41,984 bases of DNA, taken from the IMG/VR virus record IMGVR_UViG_3300017716_002541, positions 1 through 41,984 of that record. The stretch is one strand, 5' to 3'. The stretch is from a virus. Lineage: Duplodnaviria > Caudoviricetes. Both the position numbers and the translations under genes were made by a program. Positions 3,328 to 35,807 of the stretch are shown here, one piece after another. The number at the start of each line of letters is the position of its first letter. The first letter of the stretch is position 1. The notes beneath the pieces are model-generated. The model had not been told where the DNA came from and searched no databases. It saw only the letters and a program-made list of their open reading frames with translations.

Positions 3328-3916
3328 GACCCGTTCGGTCTCGCAGCCCGTTGAGCAGCGCGCGGACGGAAAGACAATCGCGGGCTACGCCGCGGTCTTT
3401 CGCTCGCCGACCAACATCGGTGGATATTTCACAGAGATCATCGCGCCGGGCGCCTTCACGAAGGCCCTGCAGTCGACAGACGTGCGCGCCCTGTATGACC
3501 ACAAATGGGGCCGGGTTCTGGGTCGGACGAGCACCGGAACCCTGCGCCTGAAGGAAGACGACAAGGGGCTTTCGGCGGAGATCGACCTGCCCGATACGAC
3601 GGACGGCCGCGACGTGCGCGCCCTGATGGAGCGCGGGGATCTGGACGGGATGTCGTTCCAGTTCAGCGCCGTCCGGCAGGAGTGGGACGAGACCACGGAC
3701 CCGCCGACCCGGACTGTTCTGGAGGCCGAACTCTACGAGGTCTCAGTCGTGGCAGACCCCGCATACCTCGACGCGACCGTGGCGCTGCGAAGCCTCGACG
3801 AAGCCCGCAAGTCCGGAGCCGACGAACGCGCCGAGCACAACCGCCGGCAGGCGGAGGCGCGCATCGCGGAACGCCGCGCCGGCGCCGAACAGAAATTCCG
3901 CCGGATCAACGGCTGA
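3305..3916 (+). CDS. HK97-family prohead protease
   Basis: IAGYAAVF, ALYDH, GMSFQF, LYEVSVVADPAY motifs. Confidence 0.95.
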   Translation: MPNKPQGETRSVSQPVEQRADGKTIAGYAAVFRSPTNIGGYFTEIIAPGAFTKALQSTDVRALYDHKWGRVLGRTSTGTLRLKEDDKGLSAEIDLPDTTDGRDVRALMERGDLDGMSFQFSAVRQEWDETTDPPTRTVLEAELYEVSVVADPAYLDATVALRSLDEARKSGADERAEHNRRQAEARIAERRAGAEQKFRRING

Positions 3917-20160: not shown

Positions 20161-21468
20161 TTACCTTCCATTACGGTCCACTAGCGGCCGTTCACCGCGC
20201 CCCATCCTAGGCGTTCGAGGCCCTCGGTTCCTTCGGGAGCCGGGGGCCTTTCTGCTGTCCGGCGTTTTGAATCGCGCCCGCAACCGATTGAAATGACTAG
20301 AGCCGGTTTTGCCCGGTTTTGAAGTGAAGGCGCTGAAACCCTTAGAATAGGTCCAGCTTCCCAAGCTTTTCGTGCGGGTTCGATTCCCGCCGCCCGCTCC
20401 AATACTTAGCCGGACAAGGCCTCGCGGTTTTGCTTCCGGTTTTTCAGGTGATGTTCCCTCTCCCTTCCGGTTCAGCTTGCGAATCATGCCCTGTGCGATG
20501 GCCTTCCGGCCGACGTAGCGACGGATGATCTGGTCGACGCGGGCCTCTTCCCATCCCAGCAGTTCGGCAATTTCGCGGTTCGACAGGCCCGCCATGTGCG
20601 CTCGGGTGGCGAACGTGCCCCGGAGGTCGTGGAAGTGCAGGTCCCGGCCTGGCAGGGCTTCGGCTCTGGCCTCCCGGAAGCCTGACCCGTTGGGCCCGTC
20701 CTTCCATGGCCGCCCGCGCTCGTTGGTCAGGACCGTCGTGCTGCGCCGTGGGATGGATGCCAGGATCGCGCGAAGGTCATCATAGAGCGGCACGAACGCC
20801 GACTTTCCGCCGCGGCTCTTGCTGGTGGGAATGACGATCTCAAACTCGCCGACGTGCGACCATGACAGCCGGCGCAGGTCTTCGGCCCGGAAGCCGGTAT
20901 GGGCGGCGAGGTTGATCCCGGCCCAGACCTCGGGTGATGCCTGTTTGCGGATGGCCTCGAGGTCGTCGTCGGTCCAGATCACGTCCGAGCGGTCTACGGT
21001 GTAGAGGCCCTTGATCCCTTCGCAGGGGTTGGCGCGGATGCGGTCGAGCTCAACGGCATGGGCCAGAACCCGCGACAGGACCTGAATGGCGTAGTCGGCG
21101 CTGCGAGGCCGGTCAGCCCATGTGTCGCGCCAGCGTTTGATGTGGGGCCTTATCTTGTCCGGGTGGTCAAACAGCCCGACCCGGTAGTCGCCGAAGCGAT
21201 CGACAACCCGGTCTAGCCAGCGGGCCCAGATCCTTCGCGTCGTCTCAGCGAGGCCCGTAAAGGCCGGCGAGGCACGGTAGAGCGCGACCAGGCCCCGGAC
21301 CTTGCCGTCGTCGGACACCTTCCGGCTGGCCAGCGCCTCGGCATAGGCGGCCATGAACTCGGGCGACCCAGGATTGCCCGGAAGCCGAGGCCCGCCGCGC
21401 CACGCATAGTGATAGGTCCGGCCCCTGGCCTTGACCGTGAAGAGGCCCTTAAGAGCCACCCTGACCAT
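20161..21468 (-). CDS. int: tyrosine integrase; the ORF reads through attP
   Basis: Catalytic R (TGFRAEDL), K (TSKS), HDLR, Y (IIRRY); ATG at 21468 overlaps the upstream small gene. Confidence 0.93.
   Translation of the reverse strand: MVRVALKGLFTVKARGRTYHYAWRGGPRLPGNPGSPEFMAAYAEALASRKVSDDGKVRGLVALYRASPAFTGLAETTRRIWARWLDRVVDRFGDYRVGLFDHPDKIRPHIKRWRDTWADRPRSADYAIQVLSRVLAHAVELDRIRANPCEGIKGLYTVDRSDVIWTDDDLEAIRKQASPEVWAGINLAAHTGFRAEDLRRLSWSHVGEFEIVIPTSKSRGGKSAFVPLYDDLRAILASIPRRSTTVLTNERGRPWKDGPNGSGFREARAEALPGRDLHFHDLRGTFATRAHMAGLSNREIAELLGWEEARVDQIIRRYVGRKAIAQGMIRKLNRKGEGTSPEKPEAKPRGLVRLSIGAGGGNRTRTKSLGSWTYSKGFSAFTSKPGKTGSSHFNRLRARFKTPDSRKAPGSRRNRGPRTPRMGRGERPLVDRNGR
20219..20252 (+). terminator. 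late operon intrinsic terminator
   Basis: GGCCCTCGGTTCC-TTCG-GGAGCCGGGGGCC followed by TTTC. Confidence 0.75.
20303..20443. repeat. putative integrase arm-type sites (CGGTTTT tandem repeats)
   Basis: CCGGTTTTGCCCGGTTTT at 20303-20320 and GCGGTTTTGCTTCCGGTTTT at 20424-20443 flank the att core. Confidence 0.6.
20355..20401 (+). other. attP core: 3' part of tRNA-Gly(CCC)
   Basis: AGC-TTCCCAA-GCT anticodon arm, GCGGG-TTCGATT-CCCGC T-arm, CGCCCGC-T-CCA acceptor end; no 5' half present. Confidence 0.88.
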
Positions 21469-22042: not shown

Positions 22043-22200
22043 GCTGGGGTGTCCTTTTGGTTCACTTCGGCTGACGCCTTCGTCCCTACCGAGCTTGCAG
22101 CGGTAGCTTTCGCCTTGCGGTCTTCGCGGACCCGCCACTCCTTCGGGAAATAGCAGCCTGAAGGGTCACCGGGTTTTCCGTAGTCAATGCGCTTGCTCAT
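22039..22200 (-). CDS. small hypothetical protein (53 aa, not in ORF track)
   Basis: MSKRIDYGKPGDPSGCYFPKEWRVRED...; ATGA overlaps at both ends; 3' part encoded by an R-type repeat. Confidence 0.6.
   Translation of the reverse strand: MSKRIDYGKPGDPSGCYFPKEWRVREDRKAKATAASSVGTKASAEVNQKDTPA
22055..22100 (-). repeat. R-type hairpin end, copy A
   Basis: Minus strand CTGCAAGCTCGGTAGGG-AC-GAA-GGC-GTCA-GCC-GAA-GT-GAACCAAAA. Confidence 0.8.
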
Positions 22201-22463: not shown

Positions 22464-22948
22464 TGTTCTCCCTCCCCGTGTTTTGTGCATTCCGACGCTT
22501 GCAGCGTCTCCATACCTGGCGAGACTGAGGCTGCGGGCGGGGGTGGCATAACCGCGTGGAGAGCCATCATCGCGCCGGTCAGGCTGACAAGAGCGCCCTG
22601 CGGATCTTTCGGAAGGCGATTGAGGGCGTCATTCCCCATGTTCCAGACGCCTTGAAGCCAGTCTTTCGGGACGACAACAGCCCCCTCCGCTGCACGGTGT
22701 GTATCGGCGTCAGCCGATGAACCATCACCACTTACCGGAGAGGCGAGGGCGCGGAGAGCTTCTTGAAGGTCTGTCAGCCGCACCTCCAAGGTTGCGTGCT
22801 CCCGAGCGGATTGCAGGTATTCCGCCTCATCACCGCGCTGCGATTTCCACTTGTGCCGCGCCTCATGCTGACAGCCCGCATCACGCTTCCGCGCCGCAGC
22901 CTTAAGTCGTTCCACCCCAGCTACAGGAGGGCTTGCGGTCTCGCTCAC
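22460..22948 (-). CDS. hypothetical chimeric protein containing an L and an R repeat
   Basis: Coupled ORF; GSSADADTHRAAEGAVV is encoded by the L repeat. Confidence 0.65.
   Translation of the reverse strand: MSETASPPVAGVERLKAAARKRDAGCQHEARHKWKSQRGDEAEYLQSAREHATLEVRLTDLQEALRALASPVSGDGSSADADTHRAAEGAVVVPKDWLQGVWNMGNDALNRLPKDPQGALVSLTGAMMALHAVMPPPPAASVSPGMETLQASECTKHGEGEQ
22480..22726 (-). mobile_element. putative hairpin-ended cassette 1 (L end 22672-22724, R end 22480-22525)
   Basis: L: TGGTTCAT-CGGC-TGAC-GCCG-ATAC-N22-GTTGT; R: AT-GGA-GACGCT-GCA-AGCGTC-GGA-AT-GCACAAAA. Confidence 0.55.
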
Positions 22949-23385
22949 GTCTTCTCTCCATCGTCAGAGGGTTGGGTCGCTGTGGCTTTCAGAATGGCGA
23001 TGCACAGGGCCAGCTCGGGGGCTTTTGCGGTCGCTTCGGTCGGCTGAAATGCCGCGCGGTCGGTATCCAGCGCGAGGGCATAGGCCCGCCAGTATTTGTG
23101 GTGGACGTTCTGGCCGACGCTCCACGACCAACACGGATAAACCCGCGATGCCAGCGCGAGGGCGGCGTCGAGACTGGTGGTGACGGGCGGTATCGGGCAG
23201 CAGCATTCTTCCGCGCCGATCTCGTACAGAAGGTCGCCTTCCCACTCTTCGTCCGTGCGGATGTTCTCGCCGCCCTCGCTGTTCAAGCCGCCGTACTGAA
23301 GCGCGATGCAGATTTCCGCGTCGATGGACTGCGACCCTTCGGAGGCCCCCTCCAGCCGGGCCAGTAGCTCGCTATGGGCGGTCAT
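22945..23385 (-). CDS. phage ABA-sandwich/BC1872-like hypothetical protein
   Basis: IDAEI...PPVTTSLDAALAL...PELALCIAILKA. Confidence 0.65.
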   Translation of the reverse strand: MTAHSELLARLEGASEGSQSIDAEICIALQYGGLNSEGGENIRTDEEWEGDLLYEIGAEECCCPIPPVTTSLDAALALASRVYPCWSWSVGQNVHHKYWRAYALALDTDRAAFQPTEATAKAPELALCIAILKATATQPSDDGEKT

Positions 23386-23606: not shown

Positions 23607-24340
23607 TCCGATTGTCCTTGTTCCTGGTTGGCGGGGGATTGTTTCACTTCGCCGGGAAGGCCCGGCTGCGTACCCGGCGAGGGACCTTCAACGGCAGTTC
23701 TGGCCTTGAAGCTGACGACCCAAACCCACGGGTTCAGGTCAGCAGCGCCAGTGCCGTTGATCTTGTCCCAAAGGTCGAAATAGGCATCGCGCGGAAACTC
23801 AGTGTGCCACGGCAGATCATCAGCCCCCCGATACGAAGGCATCCAGTCAGCATCTTTGACTTGCAAGCCCTCGGCTTTGGCGTCGCTCTCGCTGCAATCC
23901 AGCAGGCGCTCAATCCGAACGTCGGTGATTTCCAGCGTCAGCCGTGACGCATCGCGGGGCATATGGATTGAGACGACCACGTCCCGCTCCTTCCATGCCA
24001 AGTCGCGCCGTGCAGGCCAGCCGACCTCCGCACCGTCAGCGGCATAGGTCCAGAGGTGCGAGTCGCGCCGCAAGGTCTCGCGAACCCAGAGCGTGTCGCC
24101 CCGAGTGCCGTAGGGGCACAGGCTGTTCGCCGGGTCCGCGACGAAGGCCGGAACAAACCCCGACTCGTCCAGCCAACGCAGCGGCTCGCCCTTCACAACC
24201 CGGCGTGTCTGTGTCTTCCGCCCATCCAGCAAGGCGCGAACCATCGGACCCGAGAACAGGATCGGGCGCGATCGGCTGTCAGCTACAACTGGCCCGTCCG
24301 TCGCAGGCTGGGTATTTTGCGCAGCAAAATGGACCATCAC
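23603..24340 (-). CDS. ASCH/PUA-like conserved phage protein
   Basis: PILFSGPMVRALLDGRKTQTRR, CPYG..GD.LWVRET, SIHMPR.ASRLTLEITDVRIERL, NPWVWVVSF. Confidence 0.8.
   Translation of the reverse strand: MMVHFAAQNTQPATDGPVVADSRSRPILFSGPMVRALLDGRKTQTRRVVKGEPLRWLDESGFVPAFVADPANSLCPYGTRGDTLWVRETLRRDSHLWTYAADGAEVGWPARRDLAWKERDVVVSIHMPRDASRLTLEITDVRIERLLDCSESDAKAEGLQVKDADWMPSYRGADDLPWHTEFPRDAYFDLWDKINGTGAADLNPWVWVVSFKARTAVEGPSPGTQPGLPGEVKQSPANQEQGQSE
23638..24338 (-). mobile_element. putative hairpin-ended cassette 2 (L end 24278-24336, R end 23638-23685) carrying the ASCH-like domain
   Basis: L: TGGTCCAT-TTTG-CTGCG-CAAA-ATAC-N22-GTTGTAGCTGAC; R: AC-GCA-GCCGGG-CCTT-CCCGGC-GAA-GT-GAAACAAT. Confidence 0.6.
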
Positions 24341-24717
24341 CCCTCTCCACCCGGAGTAGGGACACCCGGTTCCTGCTTACGAGAGAGGGCGGCACGGGCG
24401 CGGTCAGCCCATTCAGTCGCAAGGCCATAGCGCGCAAGGCCCTCGTCAGCCTTCTGGCGGCGCAGGTCGCGCATGACCCCGGCACAGCAGCGAAGGCGAC
24501 CCTCGGCCAGTTCCAAAGCCTCCCTCAGCCTCTCCACTTCCACAGAGGGATTTTGTTCACTACGGCTCTGCGAGCCTTCGTCCCCACCGCGCTTGCAGTT
24601 CTCGACATTCTGACAGGGGCAATAGTCGTCAGACCCGCGACAGCCGCAGCGCGCTCCCTGTTCGATTTGCCATTTCGAGCGGGTCTCGGGCACCGGAGGA
24701 GAGGGCTTACGTCTCAT
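24337..24717 (-). CDS. hypothetical chimeric protein (Cys-rich N-terminus from cassette 3)
   Basis: CGCRGSDDYCPCQN, then R-repeat-encoded peptide, then PSVEVERLREAL. Confidence 0.65.
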   Translation of the reverse strand: MRRKPSPPVPETRSKWQIEQGARCGCRGSDDYCPCQNVENCKRGGDEGSQSRSEQNPSVEVERLREALELAEGRLRCCAGVMRDLRRQKADEGLARYGLATEWADRARAALSRKQEPGVPTPGGEG

Positions 24718-25015
24718 TGGTCGCCCCTTCGATGTAGCGGGCGATGCGATCCTCTAGCGCCTCGTCGTAAGGCCCTGTCATCCCGAGCGCGTCGCACAAC
24801 TCTTGCACTTGGCTGTGGCCACTGGCCATCGTGACCGTGCACCAGCAATGCGGGCGTCCGTCGTCGTCGTATTCGCCGTCCGTCTCAAACTCCCACTTCT
24901 TCGCGTCGGCCACCATGTTCAGGAAGGCTTCACGGGCATCCGAAAGGGGGTCAGCTACAACAGCCCCATCGGCGTCTCGGTGGGTATCCTCGCCCTTGAG
25001 CGAGGATGAACCAAA
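24550..25015 (-). mobile_element. putative hairpin-ended cassette 3 with a 15-bp flanking duplication
   Basis: CACTTCCACAGAGGG at 24535-24549 and 25016-25030; imperfect terminal inverted repeats TTTTGTTCAC / ATGAACCAAA; L end 24950-25013, R end 24550-24598. Confidence 0.72.
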
Positions 25016-25315
25016 CACTTCCACAGAGGGGGGAGGGGCGGCGTAGATGGGCGTTTCGGTGATCTCAAACTCGTTGGCGTCTTCGTCCGACACGCCTTGG
25101 CGCTTGGTGGAAAGGCGGTGCCGGGGTCCGTCCTTCCATTTGTTTTCGGTGTAGAGCCAAGCAACCGGCTCTCCCTCCCCTTCATGGAGGGGGGCGGCGG
25201 AAAGCATGGCTTCCCAGATCGCGCGAGGGTGGAACGGCTCGTTGGTCGCGTAAGCCGAACGCAGCATCGCCTCGGTCGGCTCTCTCGGCACATTCACCGT
25301 ATTCTCTCTGGTCAT
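24707..25315 (-). CDS. hypothetical chimeric protein (Ea22-like motifs)
   Basis: VPREPTEAML..WEAMLSAAP, PVAW, TPIYAAPP; AAGGA RBS before ATG 25315. Confidence 0.7.
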   Translation of the reverse strand: MTRENTVNVPREPTEAMLRSAYATNEPFHPRAIWEAMLSAAPLHEGEGEPVAWLYTENKWKDGPRHRLSTKRQGVSDEDANEFEITETPIYAAPPPSVEVFGSSSLKGEDTHRDADGAVVADPLSDAREAFLNMVADAKKWEFETDGEYDDDGRPHCWCTVTMASGHSQVQELCDALGMTGPYDEALEDRIARYIEGATNET

Positions 25316-26557: not shown

Positions 26558-27021
26558 CGCGGCCCCTCCAGCAGCATCGGGGGCATCTGCCCGTCGCGGT
26601 AGGCCTGCTCGATGCGGGGCTGCATGCTCTCGCTGACGGTCGAACCGTCCGGCAGCATCGTGTGTGCCAGGAACTCGTCTTCGATCGTCGTGATGCCCGC
26701 GGTGACCGCCTCCAGCTTCGCCTTGATAACGAGCGCCAGAGCGCGCCACCGCTGGCGGCCGGCCTGCTCCCACGCCTTCTCGGCCTCGGCCGGTGACCGA
26801 AGCTGGCCCTTCGCGGAGGTGTGCGTGAACTCCCTCGCCTTCGGGTCCGGCATGGGCAGGACGAACTTGATCCGGCGCCCGGCGAGCTCGAAGAAGATCA
26901 TCGCGCCGGTCGGGTTGGTCGCGTACCCGAACGACGACGCCTTGTAGCGCCGAAGGATGGTCTCGATCTCGGCCCGGCTCTTCTCGACCGAGACGCTGGT
27001 TTCGGAGGCGTACCGGGTCAC
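26554..27021 (-). CDS. conserved phage hypothetical protein
   Basis: YASETSVSVEKSRAEIE...QRWRALALVIKAKLEAV. Confidence 0.75.
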   Translation of the reverse strand: MTRYASETSVSVEKSRAEIETILRRYKASSFGYATNPTGAMIFFELAGRRIKFVLPMPDPKAREFTHTSAKGQLRSPAEAEKAWEQAGRQRWRALALVIKAKLEAVTAGITTIEDEFLAHTMLPDGSTVSESMQPRIEQAYRDGQMPPMLLEGPR

Positions 27022-28058
27022 GACAGCTCCTTCCGGCGCCGGGTGATGGCCTTGTTCAGGTCCATCGCCAGCTGGGGCTGGTCGCGCTCCAGATCGCCGA
27101 ACATCTCCTGATCGGACGGGTTGGCCAGCAGGTGGTCCAACTGCTCCAGCGACAGGCCGTCCATGTCTTCGATCAGGCGGCGCTGCCACACGATGACCGG
27201 GTCTTCGGTCTTCACCACCTCGACAGCATCGCCCGGGAAGCCATCGGCCCCGACCGTCGCCGCGTCGTCGGCAGCAGTGGTCGGGGCCTCATCCGACGCC
27301 GGGGGAGCGGCGTCGAAGTCGGGAATGTGGTCTTCAGGGTCGAGGGCGTTGTGGACGGTGAAGCCCTCGGTTGGCTCTCCGGTCGGCGCGGCGAGGCGTT
27401 CGGCCAGGTTCGGAGCCTCGCGCTGCGTCACGTCACGGACGCCGAAGGCCTGCCCCTCGACCTCCTCGGCGGCATATTCGTTGCCGATCTCCTCCGGGAA
27501 GGCGCGGCGCAAGGCAGCGGCCTCGGCGCACTTCTCCAGCTGGCCGCGGGGGCGCTTGGCCCACATGGCGTTGGGCGCCTTCGTATCCCGTTTCTTCGTC
27601 GCGTAGGTCTCGATCCAGAAGGTCTTGGGACCGACGAAGGCGACCTTCTGGCCGGCCACCAGCCGATAGACGGTGCATTGCGCCCACTCGGGATAGCGGA
27701 TCACGGCGCCGCCGAGGTCTTCCTCGATCATCGGGCCGTATTCGGTGTCCTCGAACCCGGCGAACGAGCCGGTCCGCATGGCCGTTGTTCTCAGTTCCGC
27801 AATGCCAGGCCAGACGGTGTCGACCATCCCGCCGCGCTTGGAGTCGTAGATCGGGACGATCTGGACGGGCTTCTTGAAGATGTCGAGGTTGCGCGCCCGG
27901 CAGTACGCCAGCGCCATGACGATGCTGTCCGGCGAGGCGGCGGCGGGGAAGACGGCCTCAACGAGGACCTTCCAGCCGCTCTTGTCGATGCCGAAGCGCT
28001 CCTCAACGACCGGGTGGAACGGGAGGCGCGGGGCCTGAAATTGGACGACGGCGTTCAT
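27018..28058 (-). CDS. bet: Redbeta-family single-strand annealing protein
   Basis: YCRARNLDIFKKPVQIVP, GIAELRTTAMRTG, MWAKRPRGQLEKCAEAAALRRAFPEE. Confidence 0.9.
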   Translation of the reverse strand: MNAVVQFQAPRLPFHPVVEERFGIDKSGWKVLVEAVFPAAASPDSIVMALAYCRARNLDIFKKPVQIVPIYDSKRGGMVDTVWPGIAELRTTAMRTGSFAGFEDTEYGPMIEEDLGGAVIRYPEWAQCTVYRLVAGQKVAFVGPKTFWIETYATKKRDTKAPNAMWAKRPRGQLEKCAEAAALRRAFPEEIGNEYAAEEVEGQAFGVRDVTQREAPNLAERLAAPTGEPTEGFTVHNALDPEDHIPDFDAAPPASDEAPTTAADDAATVGADGFPGDAVEVVKTEDPVIVWQRRLIEDMDGLSLEQLDHLLANPSDQEMFGDLERDQPQLAMDLNKAITRRRKELS

Positions 28059-28060
28059 GT

Positions 28061-29011
28061 TTACGCGGCTTTCGGTTGACGGTTGTTATCGTTGGCCTCT
28101 GCCGCTTGCAGCTCGAGCTCGGTGTCGATGCGCTTGGCGGCGTAGGCAGGAAGGGAGAGGTAGCTGGCGTCAGCACCGCCCGGCCCCGGCCAGATGCCGG
28201 TGTCGATGCAGCGGGCCATGGTGCGGAGTGCGGCGCGGACCTGGAGCCTGCCCCTCTCAATGTCGTCGGGGGTCAGCTGGGTGACGCGGACGCAGAAGGG
28301 CTCGGCCTTCTCGACCCAGACCAGCGCGAAGGCTTCCATGGTCAGGCCGAGGACGGCTTCCAGCCCCATGCCGACGACGGCCGCTTGAACGTTGTAGCCA
28401 TAGCTGGCCAGCGACTTGGCGAGCGCATCGTCAGTCACCGACACCGTCGTCTTGAGGTCCGCGACCACGCCCGACCCGTTCGGGATCACGTCCGGGCGGC
28501 TCTTGATCCAGATGCCGGTCTCCGCGTCCTTCCAGATCAGGAACCGCTCAACCTTGCCGTCGAGGATGCCCGCCTTCACCAGCGGGTGACGGGCGAGGCT
28601 TTCGGCCATGCCGGTCACCGCGTCCAGATCGTCCTGGGTGATGACCGTGCGGCCGGCGAGCGTCTGTTCGTCACGCCAGACCTTGGCCTCCTTGGTGCGC
28701 CAGTCCGACCAGCAGTCCGGGCGGGTGACGAACTCCTTCTCCAGCCCATCCCGACCTTCCAGCAGCAGCCGGTGAGCGAGGCGGCCCAGCGAGAAGGCGG
28801 GGCTGTCCTCAGGCGGGGCTGCGGCCGGGTTGAGGCTCGACCGGGCATAGAAGTGAGCCGGGCTTTCGGCCCAGATCGTGCGGAGGCCGCTGGACGACAC
28901 CGAGGGGCCGTCCGTGATCTGGGTGTGATACCGATCAAGCGAGAGGTTCCAGACACCGGCCTCGGTGATCTTCTGGCCCTCGGGGAGGTGGCGGGGGTTG
29001 GCGAGGCTCAT
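28061..29011 (-). CDS. RecE/exonuclease VIII-like PD-(D/E)XK nuclease
   Basis: SVSSSGLR, LGRLAH, KSRPD, ADLKT, YNVQAA; adjacent to bet. Confidence 0.88.
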   Translation of the reverse strand: MSLANPRHLPEGQKITEAGVWNLSLDRYHTQITDGPSVSSSGLRTIWAESPAHFYARSSLNPAAAPPEDSPAFSLGRLAHRLLLEGRDGLEKEFVTRPDCWSDWRTKEAKVWRDEQTLAGRTVITQDDLDAVTGMAESLARHPLVKAGILDGKVERFLIWKDAETGIWIKSRPDVIPNGSGVVADLKTTVSVTDDALAKSLASYGYNVQAAVVGMGLEAVLGLTMEAFALVWVEKAEPFCVRVTQLTPDDIERGRLQVRAALRTMARCIDTGIWPGPGGADASYLSLPAYAAKRIDTELELQAAEANDNNRQPKAA

Positions 29012-30563: not shown

Positions 30564-31340
30564 ATGACCCAGCTAGCGATGGACCACTTCGTTACGGCCC
30601 GAGCCGGGTTCCGGCGTCGGCTGTCCGCGTCGCGCGCCGAGCGCCTTGGTCGGCCAATCAAGGGCCACGAATTTGACGACCATGGAATGCTGATCGAGGT
30701 CGACGGACCACCCGCCCCTCCGATGGCTTTCCACCTCGTGTACTCGGACGCGCAGAACCAGTTGAGCGGCCGCTGCGTCACGCTCCAGTCCATCAAGGAA
30801 GAGATCGCCGACCTTCGACTCTGGGCATACTGTCACATGAGGTTGGCGGTCAGAGCGTTCATCGCGTCGCGCGTGGTCGAAGCGACCGACCTCTCAACGG
30901 GCGAGGTTCACGAGGACGGCCTGTCGTTCTTCCGAAACCACCCGATGCTCAGGCCGATGACAGCCGAGGGCATCGCGGCCATGTCGCCCGAGCTGATCGC
31001 ACTCCAGGAATGCCGGGACGAGATAATCGTCTTGAGCTTCGTCGGAGCGTCGGACGGGGATTTCGATGAGGAAGAGCAGGAGCAAATCGTCCGGCACGTC
31101 ATGATCCGCACCGACGAGCCCTTGAACGAGACGGTCATCCGGCAACGCGTTCGGTCGTGGGCACCTGACGAACGATCGTTTGAGCGCGCCCTAAACCGGC
31201 TCTGCGCCGGCGAGGGCAACGCCACCGAGCTCATGCGTTCGATTTGCCGTGTGATCGACGCTGACGGTGAGATTGACCCCGAGGAAGTCGCGTTCGCCAG
31301 CGAGGTTCAGGCTCGACTAGCGGCCGCTGGACGACTGTGA
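30564..31340 (+). CDS. WYL-like + TerB-like domain protein (moron)
   Basis: LVYSDAQNQLSGRCV...AYCHMRLAVRAFIASRV (WYL-like); ASDGDFDEEE and ADGEIDPEE (TerB-like); GGAGG RBS. Confidence 0.7.
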   Translation: MTQLAMDHFVTARAGFRRRLSASRAERLGRPIKGHEFDDHGMLIEVDGPPAPPMAFHLVYSDAQNQLSGRCVTLQSIKEEIADLRLWAYCHMRLAVRAFIASRVVEATDLSTGEVHEDGLSFFRNHPMLRPMTAEGIAAMSPELIALQECRDEIIVLSFVGASDGDFDEEEQEQIVRHVMIRTDEPLNETVIRQRVRSWAPDERSFERALNRLCAGEGNATELMRSICRVIDADGEIDPEEVAFASEVQARLAAAGRL

Positions 31341-34038: not shown

Positions 34039-34418
34039 TGCGCGCCGACTACATCCGCACATCACAGCGCGGCAGCCAGTACGAGCCGCACGAGGACACG
34101 CTGATCTGCCGAATGGTCGCCGGCCAGCGCGCGTTGCAGGACATCGCCGCGGCGTTAGAGCGGTCTGAAAAGAGCGTTCAGCAGCGCATCCACGTCCTTC
34201 GCAAGGCGGGCGACATCGCGGGCTACTCGCCCCGCCGGAAAGTTCTCGAGGTCGAGCAGTCGGTAAGCCTGACGCCGCCTCTCGAACTGCGGCTCGACGA
34301 TGATCTGGTCCGCACTGTGCGCCGCCTGGGCGGGTTCCCCCGCGCCGAAGTCGTCGGAGGCCGGACCTTCTGGCTGACCCACGACAATCGTCAATGGCAG
34401 TACGGGGTGGCGGCGTGA
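34038..34418 (+). CDS. HTH protein with GcrA-like N-terminal domain
   Basis: DIAAALERSEKSVQQRIHVLR. Confidence 0.5.
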   Translation: MRADYIRTSQRGSQYEPHEDTLICRMVAGQRALQDIAAALERSEKSVQQRIHVLRKAGDIAGYSPRRKVLEVEQSVSLTPPLELRLDDDLVRTVRRLGGFPRAEVVGGRTFWLTHDNRQWQYGVAA

Positions 34419-34423
34419 GTGAG

Positions 34424-34906
34424 ATGGCCCTGAACTTCTTCCAGCGCCACCGCGCGAAGATCGTTTTTGCCGGTCCTGACGACTGCTGGCTCTGGACGGC
34501 GGGCAAGTACAGGAACGGCTACGGACAACTCACGGTGGACAGCAAGAAGCGGCTTGCACACCGCGAGGCCTATGAGGATGCCAACGGCAAACACTCTGCC
34601 CATGGTCTCGTCGTTCGCCACAAGTGCGACGTGAAATCCTGCGTCAACCCTGCCCATCTGGAGCCCGGCACTGTCGCTGACAACAATCGCGACATGATTG
34701 AGCGCGGAGGCCACAGGTATGTGGCGCACCAAGGCGAGGCAAACGGCAGGGCCAAGATCACTGAAGACCACGTCCGCACCATCAGGGCAGCCTACGTTCG
34801 CGGCAGTAGCGAGTTCGGCCTGCGCGCGCTCGCAGAGCAGTTCGGCGTGACCCAAGTGCTCGTCAGCCGTGTCGTCCGCCGCAAGGCTTGGAGCCACGCT
34901 GTATGA
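34424..34906 (+). CDS. HNH homing-type endonuclease
   Basis: DCWLWT, GYG, AHR, VRHKCDVKSCVNPAHLEPGT..DN; C-terminal HTH. Confidence 0.9.
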   Translation: MALNFFQRHRAKIVFAGPDDCWLWTAGKYRNGYGQLTVDSKKRLAHREAYEDANGKHSAHGLVVRHKCDVKSCVNPAHLEPGTVADNNRDMIERGGHRYVAHQGEANGRAKITEDHVRTIRAAYVRGSSEFGLRALAEQFGVTQVLVSRVVRRKAWSHAV

Positions 34907-35244
34907 GCCGGAACGAAGATCACATCCTGTCCACCATTGACCGTCGCAGGGATAGAGGCACCGCCTCCGCGCGAACGATCCAAGTCCGCGCCTCTGCTGT
35001 CGAGGCTGTCAACGCCTTCGTTACCAGCCTCCCGGAAGAGGACCGCTGCGACGCGATGAACGCCGCCATCCGCCATCTGCGCACCCTTTACGGCTCCGGC
35101 GAGGGCGAGCGGGAAGCCGTTTCGCTGTTCGGCTCGCTGGCGTGGTCCGCGACCCTCCAGGCCCGCGCCGCCGTCGCCCGCGCAACCGCGGAACAGGCGA
35201 TGGCCAGACTGACCAACCACGCGAACGACGAGGATCCCCGATGA
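34903..35244 (+). CDS. hypothetical protein
   Basis: ATGA overlaps at both ends. Confidence 0.6.
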   Translation: MSRNEDHILSTIDRRRDRGTASARTIQVRASAVEAVNAFVTSLPEEDRCDAMNAAIRHLRTLYGSGEGEREAVSLFGSLAWSATLQARAAVARATAEQAMARLTNHANDEDPR

Positions 35245-35807
35245 CCGACACCATGACCGTGCAGCGCAGCTGCCCCACACCGCTGCAGCTGGCAGAAAGT
35301 CGCTGGCAGGGACGCGCCATGCGAGGAAGCCAGCCGGCCATGGTCGCGCTTTACGAAAGCGACCAACACCCGGGCTACTTCCATTGTGAAGTGACCATTG
35401 GCGGCGAGACCGTTGAAACCCGCCGACCAGTAAAAGCCTCGGGGGTTGCGCAAGTGCTTGGCTGGATGCTTAAGCCCGCCGGCTTTACCGTCGAGGATCT
35501 TTTCTGGGAGGCCGTGAGGGCGTGGAAGCCAGCGCCTCCGAAGCCCGCCGAGACCAGCGTGGTGTACTTCCTCGCCGCCGGCCCGTTCATCAAGATTGGC
35601 AAGGGCTCGGGAGACGCGACGAAACGCGCCTCTGAGCTTCAGACCGGCTGCCCATACCCGATCACGATCTTGGCTACGATGCCGGGCGGTGTCCGCGAAG
35701 AGAAGGCGCTTCACCGCAGGTTCGCCCGCATCAGGGCGCACGGCGAGTGGTTCCGCGCCGAGGACTTCCTGCTCAACTTCATCGCCAGCATCGTGGACGA
35801 AGCGTGA
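35241..35807 (+). CDS. GIY-YIG/T5orf172 (MUG113-like) domain protein
   Basis: VYFL...IKIG...R..ELQTGCP...EKALHRRF...GEWF. Confidence 0.82.
   Translation: MTDTMTVQRSCPTPLQLAESRWQGRAMRGSQPAMVALYESDQHPGYFHCEVTIGGETVETRRPVKASGVAQVLGWMLKPAGFTVEDLFWEAVRAWKPAPPKPAETSVVYFLAAGPFIKIGKGSGDATKRASELQTGCPYPITILATMPGGVREEKALHRRFARIRAHGEWFRAEDFLLNFIASIVDEA

What the first reader, a model, noticed from the sequence alone, without database searches (positions are those of the whole stretch)
24535..25030. Perfect 15-bp duplication flanks cassette 3; removing the cassette re-fuses two genes in frame
CACTTCCACAGAGGG occurs at 24535-24549 and 25016-25030, immediately outside the R and L ends. Both copies are read in the same frame as PSVEV, in ORFs 24707-25315 and 24337-24717. 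Deleting the cassette plus one copy gives ...ETPIYAAPPPSVEV-ERLREALELAEG..., a plausible single ancestral protein. The insertion therefore supplied a new C-terminus to the upstream half and a new Cys-rich N-terminus to the downstream half, turning one gene into two intact chimeras. This is the strongest evidence of a recent insertion event, and 15 bp is long for a DDE target duplication.
Basis: partly seen in the sequence, partly recalled or inferred. Interest (0 to 1): 0.85.

Follow-up and report, generated by a model that had tools for sequence, protein, structure and literature searches.

The report
Hairpin-capped swappable slots in phage genes
The 15-base repeat is real and marks an insertion slot inside a patchwork phage gene: relatives carry the slot empty or filled with different cargo between similar hairpin-capped ends, so it is likely an old landing site for swapping protein pieces rather than a recent jump.

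Summary
Observation confirmed: an exact 15-bp repeat (24535, 25016) abuts two inverted ends, and the predicted empty allele exists (L093, a contig of run X3, six proteins). 'Recent insertion' is not supported. Three other phages carry the same repeat around unrelated cargo, some in one reading frame, and the window's right half sits at another site in G030. The ends belong to a family I could not find described (8 paper searches): 212 copies in 56 phage records, 0 in controls, translated inside early accessory genes. Each has fixed words around a hypervariable hairpin (128 variants in 192 ends). Its DNA-type G..A loops always lie on the strand whose 3' end points outward. Only 5 of 62 inward pairs (3 sites) keep a duplication, of 13-16 bp with ragged spacing, which does not fit a fixed DDE footprint. 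No Y1 or IS4-type transposase was found in the phages. Best reading (0.55): an old insertion, then short-homology recombination swapping cargo, hairpins and flanking modules. Main rival (0.25): a trans-acting ssDNA enzyme reads the REP-like hairpins. The scan noted similar linker shuffling on other DNA (e1-9599354, unchecked), but not this motif.

The parts
25016..25030 (-). 15-bp repeat, upstream copy (PSVEV linker), 2 nt outside the left end
24535..24549 (-). 15-bp repeat, downstream copy, 3 nt outside the right end
24550..25015 (-). 466-bp cassette allele; a mosaic of two halves joined near 24685/24686
24955..25015 (-). Left end: conserved word, 20-nt hairpin (25006-24987), conserved word, weakly conserved tail; translated as FGSSSLKGEDTH
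   Evidence: fold z -3.3 and -4.3
24550..24600 (+). Right end (inverted copy): 5-bp stem with GCA loop and G/A mismatches on the minus strand; translated as GGDEGSQSRSEQN
   Evidence: the fold is no better than shuffles under ViennaRNA DNA parameters (z 0.6-0.7)
24686..24954 (-). Cargo half 1 (about 75-aa module); the same module occurs in P0003 and P0004 with other N-termini, and in a contig of run X2 behind another upstream module
24601..24685 (-). Cargo half 2, Cys-rich motif; found with the right end at another flank in G030, and in P0024, P0027, P0030, P0032
24707..25315 (-). Upstream ORF, 202 aa, modular early gene; no Pfam hit, one weak PHROG hit to its N-terminal linker
24337..24717 (-). 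Downstream ORF, 126 aa; no Pfam or PHROG hit
24279..24338 (-). Further left end (core word starts at 24336)
23637..23700 (+). Further right end (core at 23640); no duplication with its partner
22672..22726 (-). Further left end (core at 22724)
22480..22540 (+). Further right end (core at 22483)
22055..22110 (+). Further right end (core at 22058)
27018..29011 (-). RecT-like annealing protein (27018-28058) and exonuclease VIII-like gene (28061-29011): candidate, untested machinery

Best explanation
The 15-bp repeat flanks an insertion slot inside a modular phage early gene, and it is likely the footprint of one old insertion of a hairpin-capped DNA piece, whose ends and flanking linkers have since likely served as short-homology exchange points for swapping cargo between phages. 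Shown: empty and filled alleles exist; filled alleles share both junctions but differ in cargo and hairpins; the ends form a large family in many phages; flank, hairpin and cargo occur in mixed combinations; the G..A-loop hairpin always lies on the strand whose 3' end points out of the cassette, whatever the direction of the gene. Inferred step 1: a fragment with a stable DNA mini-hairpin near each 3' end survives as single-stranded tails and is joined into a C-rich linker by ragged, microhomology-guided annealing and fill-in, which copies 13-16 bp. Inferred step 2: afterwards annealing proteins (RecT here; Erf or Rad52-like in relatives; otherwise host functions) recombine co-infecting phages at the 8-45-bp shared words, replacing cargo, hairpin or flanking module and usually separating an end from its first partner. 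Inferred step 3: selection keeps products that stay in frame or give two intact genes.
For: Empty allele: L093, X3 contig, 6 of 34 proteins. Filled alleles with the same junctions and unrelated interiors: window, G001, G020, G037. Among the 34 proteins, 3 carry both junctions in one chain, 5 the left only and 7 the right only (these include the window's two ORFs and products of G020 and G037). A second site behaves alike: empty L220, filled L215 and L217 with different cargo, and L216 keeps the repeat and the left end but has no right end. Mixing among 203 ends: 21 of 28 repeated flanks have more than one hairpin and 24 of 28 more than one cargo; 11 of 16 repeated cargoes have more than one flank and 14 of 16 more than one hairpin. 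Repeats of 14-18 bp also flank modules with no hairpin ends. An annealing-protein family is found in 16 of 29 near-complete records. Rad52-like phage recombinases exchange short diverged sequences (PMC3945230, passages). DNA mini-hairpins resist 3'-5' exonuclease (PMC13037366, passages).
Against: Plain homology does not explain why 128 different hairpins keep one structure on one strand; that looks like selection by a protein. 13 of 29 records show none of the three annealing families tested, including G001 and G020, which carry this very site. Some swaps have homology arms of only about 8-10 nt (G003 versus G006). No excision or circle was seen, and only contigs were available. The end model was trained on the hits it then scored; its control is reversed sequence only. 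Several records look like near-identical phages, so counts are not independent events.
Confidence: 0.55

Rival explanations
1. A dedicated enzyme acting in trans on single-stranded DNA recognises the folded ends by structure and moves them. Candidates are a host HUH/RAYT-like transposase, a hairpin-binding nuclease, or a primase that copies the cassette inward from both ends. Two staggered one-ended transfers would give duplications of variable length.
For: On the outward strand each end reads GT(A/G)G tag, 2 nt, imperfect hairpin, CCA tail; the tag is GTGG or GTAG in 157 of 203 ends (inflated by my search patterns). This is the anatomy described for GTAG-1/2 REPs (PMC3733652, section 5 and passages). 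G..A loops: 56 of 111 on the outward strand, 0 on the other; 43 of 96 left and 45 of 102 right ends. There are 150 flank types among 203 ends. Mini-hairpins lie at primase and N4 polymerase sites (PMC13037366, passages). A Y1_Tnp match exists in the control genome Caulobacter vibrioides.
Against: No Y1_Tnp in 52 of 52 phage records. No repeat family with this motif in 401 sampled genomes of the class of G040: 3 hits against 5 control hits. Junctions are not enriched for the CC/CT rule of TnpA-REP (3 of 12 against about 26% background; rule from PMC8266576). The host is unidentified.
Confidence: 0.25
2. The repeat is not an insertion footprint. It is a shared linker duplicated by unequal crossing-over or Campbell-type integration of a module circle; the ends lie beside it because they had earlier attached to copies of that linker.
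For: Repeats of 14-18 bp flank modules that have no ends. L216 keeps its repeat without a right end. Sites 1 and 2 have similar linkers. PeSL mini-circles are a precedent (PMC2839356, abstract and Discussion).
Against: It needs a left end directly after and a right end directly before the same 15-mer, both fixed in all 4 filled DNA alleles, and again at two other sites.
Confidence: 0.09
3. A cargo-carrying non-autonomous DDE transposon (MITE or Pack-like) inserted recently with a 15-bp target duplication.
For: Terminal inverted repeats, a duplication next to both ends, and an empty site. MITEs occur in phages (PMC11602168, passages).
Against: 57 of 62 unique inward pairs have no duplication; lengths and spacing differ among the three sites. 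The whole cassette was not found at a second site. Interiors differ at one site. DDE_Tnp_1 is in 0 of 29 records (only one DDE family tested).
Confidence: 0.07
4. The hairpins are RNA-level or regulatory signals (terminator, antitermination or processing sites), and the shuffling is a by-product, as for PeSLs.
For: They cluster in the early region: 83 of 98 ends lie within one 6-kb stretch per genome, in 18 genomes.
Against: The G..A loop is on the antisense strand for left ends and the sense strand for right ends, equally often. Triloops dominate, and such hairpins are much more stable in DNA. The ends lie inside ORFs. No Rfam family matches them.
Confidence: 0.04

Closest known systems
PeSL cassettes of T4-type phages RB49/phi1 (Arbiol 2010, PMC2839356) and the Botstein-Campbell linker model as discussed there
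   Same: Repeated short elements with stem-loops in the variable region act as exchange points for small genes; no dedicated recombinase is known.
   Different: PeSLs are intergenic promoter-terminator units. These ends are translated inside genes, come as inverted pairs, show a strand-specific DNA hairpin, and swap parts of proteins.
GTAG-tagged REPs / REP dimers and TnpA-REP (RAYT) (PMC3733652, PMC8266576)
   Same: GT(A/G)G tag 5' of an imperfect hairpin, 2-nt gap, CCA tail, variable loops; inverted pairs with tags inside (the 'TT dimer' geometry).
   Different: Found in phages, not as a chromosomal repeat in 401 sampled genomes. Partners are 230-1900 bp apart and enclose coding cargo. No RAYT in the phages; the CC/CT junction rule was not shown.
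MITEs and cargo-carrying non-autonomous transposons (PMC11602168; Pack-MULE analogy recalled, not from a call)
   Same: Terminal inverted repeats around captured gene pieces; an empty site and a duplication.
   Different: No fixed duplication length, ragged ends, no identical copies at several sites, hypervariable hairpin inside each repeat.
Integron attC sites and phage CALINs (Qi 2023, PMC9892861)
   Same: Structure conserved while sequence varies; one strand favoured; cassettes of small ORFs in phages.
   Different: Two inverted ends per cassette instead of one site in direct order; no GTTRRRY box pair at the stem base; a duplication outside the ends; no integron integrase identified.

Membership tests
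DDE MITE / IS-derived element | Terminal inverted repeats | tested here: met
   Imperfect inverted ends; among 127 neighbours within 1.5 kb, 61 inward, 43 outward, 23 same direction
DDE MITE / IS-derived element | Fixed-length target duplication directly at the ends | tested here: not met
   5 of 62 unique inward pairs, 3 sites; 15-16, 13 and 15 bp; gaps 2/3, 10/3 and 7/7 nt
DDE MITE / IS-derived element | Near-identical whole copies at unrelated sites | tested here: not met
   Only halves recur, among G001-G038 and L093; no whole-cassette match in 50,697 phage records
DDE MITE / IS-derived element | Cognate transposase | tested here: inconclusive
   DDE_Tnp_1 in 0 of 29; none among 40 shared proteins scanned; other DDE families and the host were not searched
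REP / RAYT system | GT(A/G)G tag 5' of a hairpin | tested here: met
   157 of 203 ends; the search patterns contained the tag, so the share is inflated
REP / RAYT system | Strand-specific imperfect hairpin | tested here: met
REP / RAYT system | High copy number in a bacterial chromosome | tested here: not met
   3 of 401 sampled genomes, 5 control hits; one chance hit in the GTDB scan with a strict pattern; the true host may not be in the sample
REP / RAYT system | Associated Y1 transposase | tested here: inconclusive
   0 of 52 phage records; host unknown
REP / RAYT system | Junctions at CT (GTAG) or CC (GTGG) | tested here: inconclusive
   3 of 12 junctions CC, 0 CT, background about 26%
Integron attC / CALIN | One site per cassette in direct orientation | tested here: not met
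   104 of 127 neighbouring ends are inverted
Integron attC / CALIN | Complementary R boxes (GTTRRRY) closing the stem | tested here: not met
   Consensus words do not fit; box definition
Integron attC / CALIN | Recombination by IntI | not testable with these tools
   A tyrosine recombinase of any kind is found in 9 of 29 records
PeSL | Intergenic sigma70 promoter plus terminator stem-loop | tested here: not met
   The ends lie inside ORFs and on both strands; no promoter scan was run
PeSL | Repeated element at the borders of exchanged segments | tested here: met
PeSL | Mini-circles | not testable with these tools
   Only assembled contigs were available

The most novel reading that the evidence does not exclude
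These phages share a dedicated protein-domain shuffling system. An enzyme supplied in trans reads the shape, not the sequence, of DNA mini-hairpins at both cassette ends and moves in-frame coding modules between unrelated phages: an inverted-end, inside-the-gene counterpart of integron cassettes with no cognate gene on the phage.
Probability: 0.25. Interest if true: 0.87.

Novelty: new variant of a known kind. Interest (0 to 1): 0.64.

Why it matters
Whether phage mosaicism arises at dedicated linkers or by random joining plus selection is a long-standing question (stated in PMC3945230). Here one slot has an empty allele, several filled alleles, in-frame and split forms, and a recognisable end motif in over 50 phage records. 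Homology and hairpin structure can be changed separately, so the question becomes directly testable below the level of whole genes. If a protein reads the hairpins, it would be a new tool-like ssDNA recombination activity.

Tried and rejected
A first right-end pattern gave 4 hits that looked like chance by eye. The GTDB scan with a strict pattern gave one chance hit inside a sigma-factor-like gene (gene label from my reading). L091 is a chance match to the 18-mer. Isolate phage records: no match to the left end and only short module hits for the region. No duplication could be rebuilt by pairing ends across genomes, apart from site 1. The CC/CT junction test was inconclusive. The direct-repeat rate near ends was not higher than elsewhere in the records (28 repeats of 14 nt or more in 199 kb against 209 in 1,073 kb); I did not examine what inflates that control, so I use only for examples. 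Span between inward ends shows no frame bias (19/21/22 for remainders 0/1/2). No empty allele was found for site 3. The host was not identified: the integrase is closest to Mesorhizobium and Rhizobium phages; the Atlas and cluster look-ups gave no genus. No RNA holder listed. No tRNA gene. No structure prediction was run. Paper searches found no description of this motif; the library lacks most subscription papers. Figure 1 and the supplements of PMC3733652 with the REP consensus sequences were not seen and may bear on the REP comparison.

Full report
Setting. The window is a whole 41,984-nt virus record: an HK97-like terminase and capsid, tail genes, a tyrosine integrase, two DNA methyltransferases, RecT and exonuclease VIII-like genes and a repressor. 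The integrase is closest to Mesorhizobium and Rhizobium phages (55% and 47%), so the host is likely an alphaproteobacterium; the genus is not established. The best run holding the stretch is a freshwater metagenome and may be the source sample. The finding lies in the leftward row of small early genes between recT and int.

Observation. The 15-mer is exact at 24535 and 25016. A repeat of that length is not rare here (11 in the window, 2 within 600 bp; shuffles 2.5-3.1 and about 0.1). Its position is what counts: 2 and 3 nt outside two inverted end motifs, with a chance of about 5e-7 per pair even allowing 10-nt gaps. Both copies encode PSVEV.

Empty and filled alleles. A scan of JGI metagenome contigs with a 21-nt motif gave 3 loci: the window's own contig, a filled allele and L093, which has one copy of the repeat in a continuous ORF. 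A contig of run X3 shows the same junction, with only 11 nt on one side. Of 34 proteins from two searches, 6 are empty by a strict pattern, 3 carry both junctions in one chain, 5 the left junction only, 7 the right only, and 13 none. P0008 and P0013 share the upstream module and differ by the cassette. At DNA level G001, G020 and G037 have the same repeat around interiors unrelated to the window's (spans 442, 406 and 504 against 461 between end cores). There are three left and four right hairpin sequences among the four alleles. G001 and G020 read through in one frame; the window and G037 are split in two ORFs. The window's own cassette is a mosaic: its right 131 nt match G030 at 86%, where they end at another flank and follow another left end; its left 357 nt occur in run X2 with 2 differences behind another upstream module.

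The end family. A gapped pattern gave 82 stretches in IMG/VR. I kept 38 records by eye for having a hairpin and set the rest aside as chance, fetched those records in whole or part, and added 21 loci from two more scans. A weight-matrix plus hairpin score found 212 ends above 19 bits against 0 in reversed sequence; 57 of 61 sequences (56 records) carry at least one above 18 bits. The model was trained on its own hits, and some records are near duplicates. The window has seven ends. The carriers share few genes with the window and differ in their head and tail genes. In 18 genomes with three or more ends, 83 of 98 lie in one 6-kb stretch. Neighbours mostly alternate: 61 inward, 43 outward, 23 same direction. 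Each end has two fixed words around a hairpin that is the most variable part: 128 sequences in 192 ends. Of 111 with a perfect stem, 88 close with C-G and 56 have a G..A loop on the strand whose 3' end points out of the cassette; none has it on the other strand, and many stems carry tandem G/A mismatches. This holds for 43 of 96 left and 45 of 102 right ends, so it does not follow the mRNA strand. Such GNA and GNNA hairpins are far more stable in DNA than RNA and block 3'-5' exonucleases (PMC13037366, passages). ViennaRNA scores the window's left end well and its right end no better than shuffles. At site 1 the three left hairpins are 20, 17 and 14 nt, which keeps the frame.

Mixing. Among 203 ends there are 150 flank types and 141 hairpins; 21 of 28 repeated flanks carry more than one hairpin, 24 of 28 more than one cargo, and 11 of 16 repeated cargoes sit at more than one flank. 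G003 and G006 differ only in the hairpin. The same flank often occurs without an end in another phage, with identity breaking mostly 0-8 nt before the core word.

Is the repeat a target duplication? Of 62 unique adjacent inward pairs only 5 have a repeat, at three sites. Site 2 (13 bp, gaps 10 and 3) has an empty allele (L220), two filled alleles with different cargo (L215, L217) and an allele that keeps the repeat and left end but has no right end (L216). Site 3 (15 bp, gaps 7 and 7, L179) is in frame and has no empty allele in the scan. Repeats of 14-18 bp also flank modules without ends, for example in G001 and L093 just downstream of this slot. I read the repeat as an insertion footprint made by a ragged process, not by a DDE enzyme with fixed stagger. 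This is inference.

Enzymes. Y1_Tnp: 0 of 52 records. DDE_Tnp_1: 0 of 29. Tyrosine recombinase: 9 of 29. Erf 6, RecT 6 and Rad52-like 4, together 16 of 29, but none in G001 or G020. Shared clusters include SSB, NinB/Orf, RusA and HNH proteins (40 of the 110 most shared clusters and ORFs were scanned). A short end pattern found 3 of 401 genomes of the class of G040 against 5 control hits, so no chromosomal repeat family was seen in that sample.

Mechanism. Best reading (0.55): one old, ragged insertion of a hairpin-capped piece into a linker, then repeated exchange at the short shared words by annealing-type recombination, filtered for intact frames. Only the alleles, the mixing and the strand bias are shown; the steps are inferred. 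The weak point is that homology alone gives no reason to conserve a strand-specific fold; protection of 3' tails from exonucleases is my proposed reason and is untested. The main rival (0.25) is a trans-acting ssDNA enzyme: the tag, 2-nt gap, hairpin and CCA tail match the layout of GTAG-1/2 REPs (PMC3733652, section 5 and passages), but the junction rule of TnpA-REP (PMC8266576, passages) was not met in 12 junctions.

Comparison and novelty. It works like PeSL or linker-mediated shuffling (PMC2839356, abstract and Discussion) and looks like a REP dimer, but fails defining tests for PeSL, MITE and attC (PMC11602168 and PMC9892861, passages); REP membership is unresolved. Eight paper searches found no description of this motif. 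Look-ups in the scan's notes found nothing for this genome or sequence and only analogous systems by words. Verdict: new variant of a known kind, interest 0.64. The value lies in the end family and the allele series, not in the single repeat.

Noticed in passing
window 20345-20402: A tRNA-3'-like stretch beside the integrase end, probably attP (my reading). Rfam gives only a weak tmRNA hit at 20374-20390 (E 0.0013, below gathering); ARAGORN finds no gene. The integrase frame runs through it to 20161.
   Followed up: partly
G009:17365-17403 and L195:3587-3625: A right end and a left end back to back with nearly the same 37-nt spacer in two phages; it resembles an end-to-end junction with the module between them deleted.
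   Followed up: no
G001:14963-15164; L093:2525-2712: A module (WxEWxGGENP...IIAYRIV) flanked by a 14-16-bp direct repeat and no hairpin ends; the window has the single-copy form at 24341-24363.
   Followed up: partly
L216:900-1213: Allele of site 2 with the duplication and the left end but no right end, in frame.
   Followed up: partly
window 3479-3493 and 3611-3625; 23067-23079 and 23151-23163: Other exact repeats at spacings divisible by three (15 bp, 132 apart; 13 bp, 84 apart).
   Followed up: no
window 30564-31340 (+): TerB-domain gene on the strand opposite its neighbours, moron-like.
   Followed up: no
window 34394-34906 and 35142-35807: Free-standing HNH_3 and MUG113 nuclease genes; G020 has an HNH-like gene inside the modular region (L090:6206-6895). 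Possible initiators of gene conversion, untested.
   Followed up: no
window 24601-24685: A short Cys-rich motif (CxCxGSDDxCxCQN) travels among unrelated small proteins; likely metal-binding, no family hit.
   Followed up: partly
outer flanks of 94 end types: Flanks are C-rich far from and G-rich close to the end, often forming a loose CCCTCC...GGAGGG dyad; possibly a second class of linker or a target preference.
   Followed up: partly
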